A DNA stretch of 50,094 nt. Origin: a virus (taxonomy: Duplodnaviria > Heunggongvirae > Uroviricota > Caudoviricetes). This document shows, piece by piece, positions 28,549 through 30,890 of this stretch. The DNA lies in IMG/VR virus record IMGVR_UViG_2529292998_000004, positions 1-50,094 of that record. One strand, given 5' to 3'. Made by a program: the position numbers and the translations under genes. A model generated the notes under the pieces. It saw only the letters and a program-made list of their open reading frames with translations. It did no database searches and was not told the DNA's origin. Positions within the stretch are counted from its first letter, which is position 1. Every line of letters starts with the position of its first letter.

Positions 28549-28582
28549 ACCCCGTCTCCCGTTATCCGGAAGCTGACAACAA

Positions 28583-28613
28583 TAAAAAAAGCCACCAGTT
28601 AAGTACTGATGGC
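28583..28613 (-). terminator. Hairpin plus U-run upstream of the holin gene (possible tR'-like terminator)
   Basis: Palindrome GCCACCAGTTAAGTACTGATGGC followed on the minus strand by TTTTTTT. Confidence 0.4.
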
Positions 28614-28698
28614 TCTGATAACTCATGCAGGCATCTCAGACGACCCACTGACACTACCGGTGAGTTTAACGATACCTTCCATTTGGCTGGCTCACTTT

Positions 28699-30582
28699 TT
28701 ATGATGATGCCGGTGCATTTATCTCCAGCACCAGACTTTCTATCTCAACGCCATACGCTGCATTTTTGGTAATATCCGTCAGCGTCAGCGCATTCAGCCC
28801 CAGTGTCAGACTGTCTTTTATGACCTGGAATGCCGGGCCAGCCACTCCATTCAGTTTCGGAGTAACCGTGGCACTGCCGGCGGTGAACACCAGCTCCAGC
28901 GTCTGCCAGTCGTTACTGTAATTCCCGAACTCGCCCAACTTTGTGTTTCCGGCTTTCTTGTGATGCATCAGATTCAGTTTGCCGTCTGTGGTCTGGGTGA
29001 AGAACGACATCAGGAACGGGTTACCAGTCCCGGTCATCGCCACGACGTCAGGTAACGCTACATCGGTATACAGATAAATTCCCAGACCGAACTGGTTGTT
29101 GGTCAGTGCGCCTGACAGTCGAAACTTACAGCTCAGTCTGCCACCCCGTGTCAGCAGGGAGACTGCGTCATCCACCGGATGCATCAGGGACCAGGTTTTA
29201 TTGCTCTGCTTGGTAACCTTAAACACACCATCTTCCAGCGCAACACTGCCGCCGGTGATGGTCCAGCCCTGCGCAGCAGCCTCTCCGGCTGTCGGCAGCA
29301 GGGAGACTGTACGAACGGATGTGTCACCATCAGACGGCCCCGATGGCGTGTCGCCGCCGGGCGAGGGTTTAATCTCCGGTGCGGTACCGCTGATGAAGGC
29401 GCTGGTTCGACCAACTGCGTTCAGAATAGCGGTTGCCAGGCGATCCGAAATAATGCCCCTGCGCGCCCATGAACTGAAATGTGTCGGACGATTTGACGAT
29501 ACCCAATTACCATTACTACGGGATTGCGCGCCGTAATAACCTGCATCAGCAATATCCGGGTCTTCTGCCGGTAAGTTGGTGGGCGTGTTGTTGCCGTTAC
29601 CGTCGGTCATGAACGGCACAAAGAAAACGTTGTCGCTCTCCCTGTTTTTGTACGCGCCGTAGACGGAGTCATACTGTGTGCCGTATGTGTTTTTCCAGTA
29701 ATACGTCGTGTCGCCACAAATCCACGGTACAACTGCAGCACTGCCGCCATGGCACTGCGCGTTAAATCCGGAAAGGTCAGTACGGAACTGCTTCAGCATG
29801 GCCGTGAACAGGTCCGGTTGCTGTGCGTAGGTGGCAGCGCTCATGTCAAATTCGCCCTGCATCCAGCACACCGCCAGCAACACATTTTTCGGGTTCTTCT
29901 GTAATGCAGCTTTAGTGCGCGCAATCAGGTCCTGATATAACGGTTTACCCACACCCCAGCGCGCCGAATCCTGGCTGGCCCCCGTGGTCGTACTGAATGT
30001 TCCCTCCGCGCCCTGAGTGAATGCCGAACCACCACGACAGCATGGTACCAGCAGGATCCCCGCGTTATTCGGGATATACGGGAGCAGTTTTTTGGCAATA
30101 TGTAAGCCCTGGCCGACACAGCCGTACTGCCCTTTGCTCAGGTCTGCCTTCGGATGATTCAGTGCGCTCATATCCTGAACATCATGCAGGCAGTGGTCTG
30201 CCGGAATGATGTCGTTAAATGCGCATGCTTTACCACCGGGAGTCACTGTGTTGCGACGGGCCAGTTGCTTAATGCGTGGGTGGGGCGCATCGTAAGAATC
30301 CGGCAGCGGCATTCCATCACCATATGACATGGCATTGGATTGACCAGCAAGTACCACCACGTAATACCACTCCGGCACGCTGCCGTGCTGGGGGGAATCA
30401 GGTGAGATGTCTGTAGTGCCATCGGCCACCATTGCCTGCATTAGATACCACGGGGTGCCGGGTTCGTAGGCAACCCGCGTCTCCCCCTGAAGATGCCACC
30501 CTTTCGCAAGATGTTCATTCACCTTTTGAGTCAGTTCAGCCTGTGTCATGGCTGTAATCAGTGCAAAGTTCTTACTGGTCAT
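28699..30582 (-). CDS. nanS: Prophage sialate O-acetylesterase, NanS-p type (DUF1737 + SGNH hydrolase)
   Basis: 627 aa; N-terminal MTSKNFALITAMTQAELTQKVNEHLAKGWHLQGET.. (DUF1737-like) and ..VVVLAGQSNAMSYGDG.. esterase motif; resembles yjhS/nanS-like genes found upstream of S in Stx-type prophages. Confidence 0.75.
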   Translation of the reverse strand: MTSKNFALITAMTQAELTQKVNEHLAKGWHLQGETRVAYEPGTPWYLMQAMVADGTTDISPDSPQHGSVPEWYYVVVLAGQSNAMSYGDGMPLPDSYDAPHPRIKQLARRNTVTPGGKACAFNDIIPADHCLHDVQDMSALNHPKADLSKGQYGCVGQGLHIAKKLLPYIPNNAGILLVPCCRGGSAFTQGAEGTFSTTTGASQDSARWGVGKPLYQDLIARTKAALQKNPKNVLLAVCWMQGEFDMSAATYAQQPDLFTAMLKQFRTDLSGFNAQCHGGSAAVVPWICGDTTYYWKNTYGTQYDSVYGAYKNRESDNVFFVPFMTDGNGNNTPTNLPAEDPDIADAGYYGAQSRSNGNWVSSNRPTHFSSWARRGIISDRLATAILNAVGRTSAFISGTAPEIKPSPGGDTPSGPSDGDTSVRTVSLLPTAGEAAAQGWTITGGSVALEDGVFKVTKQSNKTWSLMHPVDDAVSLLTRGGRLSCKFRLSGALTNNQFGLGIYLYTDVALPDVVAMTGTGNPFLMSFFTQTTDGKLNLMHHKKAGNTKLGEFGNYSNDWQTLELVFTAGSATVTPKLNGVAGPAFQVIKDSLTLGLNALTLTDITKNAAYGVEIESLVLEINAPASS

Positions 30583-30890
30583 TGTGTTACTCCCGTCTGG
30601 TGTGTCAGTTCGGCTATTCTCTTATCCAGTTCAGCAATGGCCCGTTTATCCGCGTTACAGGTTTCCAGTGCATCCAGAAGGCGGTCGCCCCATATTCCGA
30701 GGTTTCCCCATGTGGGTGGGTCAGGGAAGGGGGGAGGCGTTACCGGCATGGTCAGCGTCTGCGGTATAAGCCGGACTGACGGCGCTGGCCCTGGCGCGTT
30801 CTGCGTGCCTGCGCAACCTGTCAGTAAAACGAGCGTCAGGCAAAGCGTGGGCGCATTCATCTTTTGCAATATCGTTGCGTAGCTGTTCAC
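30579..30890 (-). CDS. Spanin outer membrane lipoprotein (LysC-like); start may be the internal Met at 30860
   Basis: Lipobox LLTGC, overlaps 3' part of the i-spanin gene in another frame. Confidence 0.6.
   Translation of the reverse strand: MNSYATILQKMNAPTLCLTLVLLTGCAGTQNAPGPAPSVRLIPQTLTMPVTPPPFPDPPTWGNLGIWGDRLLDALETCNADKRAIAELDKRIAELTHQTGVTQ

What the first reader, a model, noticed from the sequence alone, without database searches (positions are those of the whole stretch)
28549..30890. Abrupt junction between a lambda-type late region and a P2-type lysis/capsid block, with a nanS-p esterase at the seam
The lambdoid block begins at the holin with no Q antiterminator, late promoter region, immunity or replication genes upstream. 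Instead the nanS-type esterase gene starts 4 nt inside the stop of a P2-type o-spanin gene (30579-30582). The window therefore carries two lysis cassettes (S-R-Rz/Rz1 and holin-M15 endolysin-lysB/lysC) and two complete packaging and capsid modules in one co-oriented array. This implies either a tandem or nested pair of defective prophages fused by deletion, or a hybrid element.
Basis: partly seen in the sequence, partly recalled or inferred. Interest (0 to 1): 0.6.

Follow-up and report, generated by a model that had tools for sequence, protein, structure and literature searches.

The report
Two prophage halves joined via esterase
The apparent hybrid is half of a P2-like prophage joined to the late half of a lambda-like prophage by a crossover inside an esterase gene that both phage types carry; it occurs in a short-read draft assembly, so it is either an assembly error or a strain-specific chromosomal inversion, not a new kind of phage.

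Summary
The lysC-ATGA-esterase overlap at 30579-30582 is the normal arrangement of a common P2-like prophage family. It is contiguous in 373 of 5,426 complete E. coli genomes, where the esterase sits between lysC and tail gene R.

Lambdoid prophages carry a homologous nanS-p esterase between Q/tRNAs/IraM and the holin. The real switch lies inside the esterase ORF:
- The window is 100% identical to a native lambdoid prophage (GCA_047584305.1) from 1 to 28950.
- It is identical to the native P2-type gene from 28783 onward.
- The crossover is therefore in 28783-28950 (conservative bound 28783-29907).

Relatives place the lambdoid half at ompW/yciE and the P2 half at serS/dmsA. These sites are 374 kb apart on opposite strands, so the join has inversion geometry, not deletion geometry.

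Neither this junction nor its reciprocal occurs in any of 5,426 complete genomes or 50,697 phage records. The source is strain C43/90, a Velvet k=93 assembly of 100-bp paired reads.

Verdict: a homology-mediated join of two separate prophages. I put an assembly chimera at about 0.5 and a real inversion at about 0.4. It is ordinary either way.

The parts
1..28782 (-). Late half of a lambdoid prophage: side tail fibre and assembly genes, lom, J...H tail genes, head genes, portal 20729-22321, Nu1 24407-24955, and a lysis cassette. It has no Q, immunity, replication or int genes.
   Evidence: Window 1-28950 is 100.000% identical to GCA_047584305.1 contig ABXQFH010000004.1 (L025 and L032), where the prophage has the native order Mtase-IraM-esterase-holin and abuts yciE-trp. 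Pfam tables. 616 complete genomes cover at least 80% of window 1-25000.
22508..24435 (-). Lambdoid large terminase gene (gpA type), split into 528-aa (22849-24435) and 132-aa (22508-22906) ORFs by a 1-nt deletion near 22923 (AAAACCCG to AAAACCG).
   Evidence: Alignment with an intact 642-aa allele. The same split is present in independent assemblies GCA_901485095.1 and Logan SRR31593555, so it is a real mutation.
26152..28548 (-). Lambdoid lysis cassette: holin 28333-28548, DUF1327/YdfR 27984-28328, lysozyme 27107-27640, Rz 26152-26610, Rz1 26214-26399.
   Evidence: Pfam PF04971, PF07041, PF00959, PF03245 and PF06085.
28588..28616 (-). Terminator-like hairpin (12-bp stem followed by a run of seven T) between the esterase stop and the lambdoid holin start.
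   Evidence: Consensus scan. This is a pattern match only: 4 sites were found against 3.7 expected in shuffles. Function is inferred.
28699..30582 (-). Recombinant nanS-p-type sialate O-acetylesterase gene (627 aa). The 5' part is P2-type. The last ~28 codons and the downstream DNA are lambdoid-type.
   Evidence: Pfam DUF1737 4-53, SASA 75-271, DUF6645 477-587. PDB NanS 3pt5 E=1.9e-123 and NanS-p C-terminal domain 6yp6 E=1e-30. An in-silico recombinant of the two native alleles gives this exact protein.
28783..28950 (.). Crossover interval, 168 nt, identical in both parental types. It codes for residues ~545-600 of the esterase, in and just beyond the C-terminal DUF6645 match (477-587). The conservative upper bound is 29907.
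   Evidence: There are 46 lambdoid-type informative sites up to 28782 and P2-type sites from 28951. The near-identical lambdoid prophage L032 first differs at 28951. This is the longest exact run between the L032-type and P2-type genes. Some lambdoid alleles match the window as far as 29907.
30579..31825 (-). P2-type lysis cassette: lysC 30579-30839 (ORF extends to 30890), lysB 30721-31116, M15 endolysin 31113-31505, holin 31502-31825.
   Evidence: Pfam PF23793, PF13539 and PF05106. LysB is listed as PF10828 in the precomputed table but got no hit in my own scan.
31828..38334 (.). P2-type head and packaging module: X 31828-32028, L 32028-32522, M 32624-33424, N 33470-34522 and O 34546-35382 on the - strand; P 35537-37288 and Q 37288-38334 on the + strand.
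   Evidence: Pfam PF05489, PF05926, PF05944, PF05125, PF05929, Terminase_6N/6C and PF04860. 278 complete genomes cover at least 80% of window 30000-50094.
38335..50094 (.). P2-type early half: variable cargo region 38.3-40.2 kb, replication endonuclease A 40257-43079 (-), small early genes, Cox 48065-48586 (-), repressor C 48691-49032 (+), integrase 49102-50094 (+). ogr and all tail genes are missing.
   Evidence: Pfam PF05840, PF10743, HTH_3 and PF00589. L026 is 99.985% identical over 30257-50094. This exact integrase lies next to dmsA in 10 of 10 places shown. No ogr or tail homology in the window.

Best explanation
Shown: the window is not one phage. It is the integrase-to-lysC half of a P2-like prophage joined to the esterase-3'-end-to-tail-fibre half of a lambdoid prophage.

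Both phage families natively carry a nanS-p-type esterase gene. In P2-likes it lies between lysC and tail gene R. In lambdoids it lies between Q/tRNAs/IraM and the holin. The join is a clean, in-frame switch inside a stretch where the two genes are identical (28783-28950).

Inferred from near-identical relatives: the P2-like prophage belongs at serS/dmsA and the lambdoid one at ompW/yciE. These sites are 374 kb apart and the two esterase genes point in opposite directions. The join is therefore what an exchange across an inverted repeat produces.

My commitment: in this record the exchange was most likely made by the assembler, not the cell. The contig comes from a Velvet k=93 assembly of 100-bp short-insert pairs. 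The shared exact stretches (168 and 143 nt) exceed both k and the read length. No long-read genome shows either product of such an exchange.

Whichever way the join arose, the resulting element cannot work as a phage:
- It has no Ogr to switch on the P2 late genes.
- It has no Q to read through lambdoid terminators.
- It has no P2 tail.
- Its lambdoid terminase gene is frameshifted.
- Its two ends are mismatched attachment sites.
For: - Source and method: the window is an exact piece of GCA_000350045.2 contig AHAW01000014.1. That is strain C43/90, sequenced as HiSeq 100-bp short paired ends and assembled with Velvet 1.1.05 at k=93.
- The lysC-esterase junction is native: 373 of 5,426 genomes.
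- The lambdoid parental state exists. GCA_047584305.1 is 100% identical over window 1-28950 but has Mtase-IraM-esterase (617 aa)-holin.
- The P2 parental state exists (L001, L014, L027).
- The crossover is mapped.
- Strand switch: int lies next to dmsA in 10 of 10 places; the tail-fibre end lies next to yciE-trp; K-12 gene orientations are.
- Rarity: 0 of 5,426 complete genomes carry this junction and 0 of 5,426 carry the reciprocal. Many of them hold both prophage types, for example 300444, FORC_069, NCCP15648 and O104:H4 FDAARGOS_349/401/403. No phage record of 50,697 covers at least 80% of the junction.
- The predicted reciprocal esterase is absent from 15 billion proteins, a set that does include this assembly's hybrid protein.
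- Other short-read assemblies break inside this gene, for example L026's contig near window 29796.
Against: - If the lambdoid parent carried the L032-type allele, the collapsed repeat is only about 312 nt. Read pairs from fragments of about 330 nt or more would span it. A paired-end Velvet run should then have resolved it correctly, or left a break, not made a wrong join.
- The contig runs without a break through the 2.5-kb lambdoid lysis cassette. This suggests the flanks are single-copy in this genome.
- An independent MEGAHIT metagenome contig (ERZ27258711 k141_3203, L005) encodes the identical 627-aa hybrid and continues 100 nt into lambdoid-type DNA. Its P2 background differs slightly, with a 12-nt indel in lysB and several SNPs.
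- Lambdoid esterase alleles identical to the P2-type allele over 1.1-1.2 kb show that real exchange between these paralogues does occur in nature.
- I could not inspect reads or the other contigs of the assembly.
Confidence: 0.5

Rival explanations
1. Real chromosomal inversion. In C43/90, RecA-dependent recombination took place between the inverted esterase paralogues of the P2-like prophage at serS/dmsA and the lambdoid prophage at ompW/yciE. It flipped the ~374-kb segment between them. The window is one of the two resulting chimeric prophages. The other would be serS-ogr-P2 tail-R-esterase-IraM-tRNAs-Q-lambdoid early-int-ompW. Both would be locked in the chromosome.
For: - The geometry fits an inversion exactly.
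- The crossover lies in the longest identical stretch and keeps the reading frame.
- The repeat is short enough (~312 nt with an L032-type allele) for paired reads to have resolved it truthfully.
- A second, independent contig carries the same junction.
- Mosaic alleles show that these paralogues recombine in nature.
- From my own knowledge: prophage-bounded inversions are well documented in E. coli O157:H7.
Against: - 0 of 5,426 complete genomes carry either junction, although many hold both prophages.
- The near-identical lambdoid prophage in a relative is unrearranged.
- The predicted reciprocal protein is not on record.
- From my own knowledge: the inversion would lie wholly inside one replichore (0.94-1.31 Mb, away from oriC and ter). 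It would turn many highly expressed and essential genes head-on to replication, which is usually selected against.
- The only isolate evidence is a 2013 Velvet short-read contig.
Confidence: 0.4
2. A natural hybrid phage type, or a tandem or nested pair of prophages fused by deletion. On this view a single mobile element or a single locus contains both blocks in this order.
For: - The total length (~50 kb) would fit a lambda-size capsid.
- The late genes of both blocks run the same way, so the P2 late operon could in principle read into the lambdoid lysis genes.
Against: - Each end sits at its own parent's attachment site, with opposite chromosomal strandedness. A deletion cannot switch strand. 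From my own knowledge, a 374-kb deletion here would also remove many essential genes.
- No phage record or complete genome has this order.
- The window has no ogr, no Q and no P2 tail, and the lambdoid terminase gene is frameshifted.
- A terminator-like hairpin precedes the lambdoid holin.
Confidence: 0.04
3. The seam is at the lysC/esterase overlap (30579-30582). On this view the esterase belongs to the lambdoid block and was fused to lysC by an illegitimate deletion.
For: In lambdoid and Stx phages, nanS-p sits just upstream of the holin. Read on its own, the esterase therefore looks lambdoid.
Against: - 373 complete genomes have lysC-ATGA-esterase followed by P2 tail genes R and S.
- Window 28783-31500 is identical, with zero differences, to such a native P2-like prophage (L001 row).
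- Lambdoid alleles lose all homology beyond 30376.
Confidence: 0.01

Closest known systems
P2-like (Peduoviridae) E. coli prophages that carry a nanS-p-type esterase between lysC and tail gene R. Examples are the prophages at ihfA/btuC in strain PO06021 and at serS/dmsA in DA33135, O104:H4 strains, and P88-like phage records.
   Same: Window 28783-50094 matches this family gene for gene, including the ATGA overlap of lysC and the esterase. Identity is 98-99.99%.
   Different: The window lacks everything downstream of the esterase in these prophages (R, S, baseplate, fibres, sheath/tube, D, ogr). The last ~28 codons of the esterase are lambdoid-type.
Lambdoid non-Stx E. coli prophages with nanS-p upstream of a class II holin. 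Examples are the prophage at ompW/yciE in GCA_047584305.1 and those in TW14425 and 55989.
   Same: Window 1-28950 is 100% identical to the GCA_047584305.1 prophage, including its frameshifted terminase gene.
   Different: The window lacks the IraM, tRNA, methylase, Q, replication, immunity and int parts, and the lambdoid 5' portion of the esterase.
NanS-p sialate O-acetylesterases of Stx and other prophages (933W L0105/z1466; vb_24B_21 of phage phi24B; PMC8065619, PMC10462455).
   Same: It has the same three-part architecture: DUF1737, a SASA/SGNH domain homologous to NanS, and a lectin-like C-terminal domain. Shuffling of these three modules among alleles is already described (PMC10462455).
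   Different: It is about 88% identical in DNA to the Stx-phage alleles. This copy sits in a P2-type lysis operon and not downstream of stx or Q. Activity was not tested.
Prophage-bounded large chromosomal inversions in E. coli (known from O157:H7 long-read studies; my own knowledge), and repeat-mediated rearrangements generally (e.g. PMC4173774).
   Same: An exchange between inverted, near-identical prophage segments would give exactly this kind of chimeric prophage.
   Different: The homology here is short (168-396 nt with the L032-type allele). It links two unrelated phage families. The inversion would be asymmetric, inside one replichore. It is unconfirmed by long reads.
Repeat-induced chimeric contigs in short-read de Bruijn graph assemblies.
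   Same: The join lies in an exact repeat longer than k (168 against 93) and longer than the reads. The junction is found only in short-read assemblies.
   Different: The repeat is small enough that paired reads could have resolved it correctly. No read-level evidence is available.

Membership tests
NanS-p (prophage sialate O-acetylesterase) | Catalytic SGNH/SASA domain homologous to chromosomal NanS (YjhS) | tested here: met
   PF03629 over residues 75-271. PDB 3pt5 NanS, E=1.9e-123 over residues 69-388.
NanS-p (prophage sialate O-acetylesterase) | N-terminal DUF1737 and a lectin-like C-terminal domain flanking the catalytic domain | tested here: met
   PF08410 over residues 4-53 and PF20350 over 477-587. 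PDB 6yp6 'NanS-p' C-terminal domain, E=1e-30 over residues 431-623.
NanS-p (prophage sialate O-acetylesterase) | De-O-acetylation of Neu5,9Ac2 | not testable with these tools
   This needs an enzyme assay. Activity has been shown for other alleles (cited in PMC8065619).
P2-like prophage (complete) | int-C-cox switch, replication endonuclease A, the Q-P / O-N-M-L head module, and a holin-endolysin-LysB-LysC cassette in P2 order | tested here: met
   Pfam tables; collinear with L001 and L014.
P2-like prophage (complete) | Tail and baseplate genes (R, S, V, W, J, I, H, G, FI, FII, E, T, U, D) and the late activator Ogr | tested here: not met
   No blastn or tblastn match in the window to the 17-kb tail-ogr region of L001, to Ogr, or to gpR.
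Lambdoid prophage (complete) | Late region: S-R-Rz/Rz1, Nu1/A, portal, protease, D/E head genes, Z-U-V-G-T-H-M-L-K-I-J tail genes | tested here: met
   Pfam tables. However, the large terminase gene is frameshifted.
Lambdoid prophage (complete) | Q antiterminator, immunity, replication and integration genes | tested here: not met
   No match in the window to the early region of L002 or to its Q protein.
Natural phage type with this gene order | An intact phage or prophage elsewhere with P2 head/lysis, then esterase, then lambdoid lysis/head/tail | tested here: not met
   No phage record of 50,697 covers at least 80% of the junction. No complete E. coli genome of 5,426 does. None of the 35 viral or metagenome contigs that share the 3' esterase sequence has P2 DNA upstream.
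Prophage-mediated chromosomal inversion | The junction joins DNA of opposite chromosomal orientation through an inverted repeat | tested here: met
   dmsA is on the + strand; yciE and trp are on the - strand in K-12. The flanks are inferred from relatives that are 100% and 99.985% identical. The flanks of the source contig itself were not read.
Prophage-mediated chromosomal inversion | The reciprocal junction is present in the same genome | tested here: inconclusive
   The predicted reciprocal esterase (616 or 621 aa) is not among 15 billion proteins. However, the P2-type 3' end in C43/90 is assumed, and the gene could be cut by a contig end.
Prophage-mediated chromosomal inversion | Read-pair, long-read or PCR support across both junctions | not testable with these tools
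Assembly chimera | Short-read de Bruijn assembly in which the join falls in an exact repeat longer than k and longer than the reads | tested here: met
   Velvet k=93 with 100-bp reads. The exact shared runs are 168 and 143 nt.
Assembly chimera | Discordant or missing read pairs across the join | not testable with these tools

The most novel reading that the evidence does not exclude
The join is physically real. On this reading a cargo gene (nanS-p) shared by two unrelated temperate phage families acts as a portable stretch of homology. Through it, a P2-like and a lambdoid prophage 374 kb apart recombine. This inverts a quarter of a replichore and creates two reciprocal, immobilised chimeric prophages. 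The P2 attL and attR would then be in inverted orientation, so Int/Cox could flip the segment but not excise the prophage. The same junction in an unrelated metagenome contig would make this a recurrent event.
Probability: 0.35. Interest if true: 0.4.

Novelty: already known. Interest (0 to 1): 0.15.

Why it matters
If the join is an artefact, it is a useful warning. Cargo genes shared between phage families, here nanS-p with up to 1.2 kb of exact identity between lambdoid and P2-like alleles, can make short-read assemblers or prophage predictors report hybrid phages that do not exist.

If the join is real, it is one more example of prophage-mediated genome rearrangement. The modest twist is that the homology bridges two unrelated phage families and immobilises both prophages.

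Neither outcome opens a long-standing question.

Tried and rejected
- **Walking out of the window to read the source contig's own flanks.** The methyltransferase and the integrase are too common, so the source contig was not among the places shown. The 221-aa ORF at 47638-48303 is not a called gene. The flanks therefore rest on relatives that are 100% and 99.985% identical.
- **First reciprocal-junction search.** It was badly designed, with only 55 nt of P2-specific flank, and is uninformative. I repeated it properly.
- **Using position 28951 (G against T) as a P2-specific marker.** I rejected it as strictly diagnostic after 35 lambdoid-flanked contigs with G at that site turned up. This is why I give the conservative crossover bound of 28783-29907.
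- **Deletion or tandem fusion.** Rejected on strand geometry.
- **Seam at lysC/esterase.** Rejected.
- **Blunt concatenation of contigs by the authors' reference-guided ordering.** Considered and rejected. The join is seamless and in frame, with no duplicated k-1 overlap and no N (one search reports 0 N).
- **GC skew.** It tracks transcription direction in the phage genes and says nothing about the chromosomal inversion.
- **Literature.** I found no paper that explicitly describes a P2-borne nanS-p. RefSeq annotation of hundreds of genomes nonetheless shows it.
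Full report
**What is in the window.**

Nearly all late genes lie on the - strand.
- Positions 1-28.6 kb are a lambda-type late region. It holds side tail fibre and assembly genes, lom, the J to H tail genes, head genes, portal, terminase, and a lysis cassette. The cassette is holin 28333-28548, DUF1327/YdfR, lysozyme, and Rz/Rz1.
- Positions 30.6-50.1 kb are a P2-type block:
  - lysC, lysB, M15 endolysin, holin, X, L, M, N and O on the - strand;
  - P and Q on the + strand;
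  - a variable cargo region;
  - replication gene A and the small early genes;
  - cox, C, and an integrase whose stop codon is the last base of the window.
- These assignments rest on Pfam results.
- Between the two blocks lies a 627-aa ORF (28699-30582). Its ATG overlaps the lysC TGA as ATGA.
- That ORF is a NanS-p-type esterase with DUF1737, SASA and DUF6645 domains. It matches PDB NanS 3pt5 at E=1.9e-123 and the NanS-p C-terminal domain 6yp6 at E=1e-30.
- The window contains no lambdoid Q or early DNA and no P2 ogr or tail DNA.

- The lambdoid large terminase gene is split by a 1-nt deletion near 22923.
- P2 P and Q are on the opposite strand, as in native P2.

- A search with window 28300-31600 found 373 of 5,426 complete E. 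coli genomes that hold 28717-31600 as one piece, at up to 99.5% identity.
- In these genomes the esterase is a standard gene of a P2-like prophage. It lies between lysC and the tail-completion genes R and S, for example in PO06021 and DA33135.
- P2-like phage records also contain it.
- Lambdoid prophages carry a homologous esterase in a different setting: Q, methylase, tRNAs, IraM, esterase, holin.
- The esterase is therefore native to both families. The lysC/esterase overlap is a family trait, not a scar.

**Where the ancestry switches.**

- A three-way alignment shows the window carrying the lambdoid state at all 46 informative sites up to 28782. It carries the P2 state from 28951 onward.
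- The best lambdoid proxy is contig ABXQFH010000004.1 of GCA_047584305.1. It is identical to the window at every base from 1 to 28950, and it keeps the native lambdoid order with a 617-aa esterase. Its first difference from the window is at 28951.
- The native P2-like prophage of PO06021 is identical to the window from 28783 to at least 31500.
- Splicing the two native genes in silico anywhere in 28783-28950 gives exactly the window's protein.
- This 168-nt stretch is the longest exact run between the two parental alleles. The next runs are 143 and 83 nt.

One caveat applies.
- A 193-nt probe across the interval found 35 viral or metagenome contigs, all with lambdoid DNA downstream, most with lambdoid DNA upstream as well, and none with P2 DNA upstream.
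- Their esterase alleles match the window much further, up to 29907 in exact runs of 1,160-1,221 nt.
- The esterase core is thus a mosaic module exchanged between the two families.
- If C43/90's lambdoid parent had such an allele, the crossover could lie anywhere in 28783-29907.
- At the protein level the recombinant differs from the native P2-type enzyme only in its last ~12 residues.

**Source and geometry.**

- The window is an exact piece of contig AHAW01000014.1 (353,811 bp) of GCA_000350045.2.
- That assembly is E. coli C43/90. It was sequenced as 100-bp short paired-end HiSeq reads and assembled with Velvet 1.1.05 at k=93 (PMC3651199).
- The exact integrase lies next to dmsA in 10 of 10 places shown. 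So does a P2-like prophage that is 99.985% identical.
- The tail-fibre end of the 100%-identical lambdoid prophage abuts yciE-yciF-yciG-trpA.
- In K-12, dmsA is on the + strand at 940,959. yciE and trpA are on the - strand at 1,314,718-1,317,222.
- In window orientation, trp reads on the + strand at the left and dmsA reads on the + strand at the right. The join therefore connects DNA of opposite chromosomal orientation from sites 374 kb apart.
- A deletion cannot do this. An exchange across an inverted repeat can, whether it happens in the cell or in an assembly graph.
- Because each end sits at its own parent's attachment site, integration of a pre-formed hybrid phage is also excluded. This step is inferred from relatives. 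I could not read the source contig's own flanks.

**Real inversion or assembly chimera?**

Points favouring an artefact:
- No complete genome of 5,426 has this junction or the reciprocal one. Many of them carry both prophage types. Strain 300444, FORC_069, NCCP15648 and several O104:H4 genomes appear in both hit lists.
- No phage record has the junction.
- The near-identical lambdoid prophage in a relative is unrearranged.
- The predicted reciprocal esterase is absent from a 15-billion-protein collection that does contain this assembly's hybrid protein.
- The shared exact runs exceed both k and the read length.
- From my own knowledge, the inversion would lie wholly within one replichore, a class that is usually counter-selected.

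Points favouring a real event:
- With an L032-type allele, the collapsed repeat is only about 312 nt. That is within reach of ordinary paired-end fragments, so Velvet should have resolved it correctly or left a break.
- An independent MEGAHIT metagenome contig (ERZ27258711 k141_3203) encodes the identical hybrid protein and runs 100 nt into lambdoid-type DNA. Its P2 background differs slightly.
- The mosaic alleles show that these paralogues do recombine in nature.

The graph structure is the same for the native and the inverted genome, so only read pairs, PCR or long reads can decide. Weighing the low base rate of the rearrangement against the known error rate of this generation of assemblers, I put the chimera at about 0.5 and a genuine inversion at about 0.4.

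**Function of the joined element.**

Whichever origin is correct, it is not a working phage.
- It has P2 immunity, replication, head and lysis genes. It has no Ogr to activate P2 late promoters and no P2 tail.
- Its lambdoid late genes have no Q or pR'. They are preceded by a terminator-like hairpin at 28616-28588 (a pattern match only).
- Its lambdoid terminase is inactivated by a frameshift that is also seen in independent assemblies.
- Its two ends are non-matching attachment sites.
- The esterase itself is probably intact. As in native P2-like prophages, it would be expressed from the P2 late lysis operon, translationally coupled to lysC. This last point is inferred.

**Comparison with what is known, and novelty.**

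- The components are ordinary members of abundant families. A total of 616 genomes cover at least 80% of the lambdoid half, and 278 cover at least 80% of the P2 half.
- NanS-p enzymes, and shuffling of their three domains, are already described (PMC8065619, PMC10462455).
- Prophage-bounded inversions and repeat-induced chimeric contigs are both well-known phenomena.
- One point I did not find stated in the papers searched: a P2-like lineage carries nanS-p between lysC and R, and it shares up to 1.2 kb of exact sequence with lambdoid alleles. Genome annotation nonetheless makes this plain.
- Interest is low.

Noticed in passing
window 22508-24435 (site near 22923): The lambdoid large terminase gene has a 1-nt deletion (AAAACCCG to AAAACCG) that splits it into 528-aa and 132-aa ORFs. 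The same lesion is present in GCA_901485095.1, Logan SRR31593555 and GCA_047584305.1. It is therefore a real, inherited defect of this prophage lineage and not a sequencing error.
   Followed up: yes
window 28783-30376; loci L044-L078: The esterase core is a mosaic module shared by lambdoid and P2-like prophages. Different lambdoid alleles are exactly identical to the P2-type allele over 168 to 1,221 nt. All homology ends at 28782 on the 3' side and at about 30376 on the 5' side, where the DUF1737 N-termini differ.
   Followed up: partly
window 38335-40257: The variable region between P2 Q and A holds an 87-aa ORF, a 163-aa 'XF1762 family' ORF and a 191-aa ParM/StbA fragment. Relatives have a full 319-aa ParM plus ParR-like, ClpX-zinc-finger and other genes here. 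This matches the known cargo and defence hotspot of P2-like phages and was not examined further.
   Followed up: no
window 44122-44952: An SPFH/Band_7 protein (276 aa) is encoded among the P2 early genes. It is present in some relatives and absent in others.
   Followed up: no
window 612-1280 (+ strand): A 222-aa SAM-methyltransferase gene lies on the opposite strand between two tail-fibre-assembly genes at the lambdoid prophage end. The exact protein is extremely widespread, listed in 11,494 blocks of the collection.
   Followed up: no
window 25000-26000: A low-GC stretch (0.38, against about 0.55 around it) lies between Rz and Nu1. It holds only small ORFs (DUF3950 61 aa, and a 46-aa ORF). 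It is probably the cos-proximal moron region.
   Followed up: no
window 30721-31116: The LysB-position protein (131 aa) is listed as PF10828/DUF2570 in the precomputed table and in RefSeq, but it gave no Pfam hit at E<=0.001 in my own scan.
   Followed up: no
window 28588-28616 (- strand): A strong terminator-like hairpin with a run of seven T lies between the esterase stop and the lambdoid holin start. Metagenome contig L005 ends at 28599, inside this hairpin.
   Followed up: no
window ends (1-3 and 50092-50094): Both ends of the window coincide with stop codons, of a 93-aa - strand ORF and of the integrase. The window therefore stops just short of both prophage-chromosome boundaries, and neither att site can be read.
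   Followed up: partly
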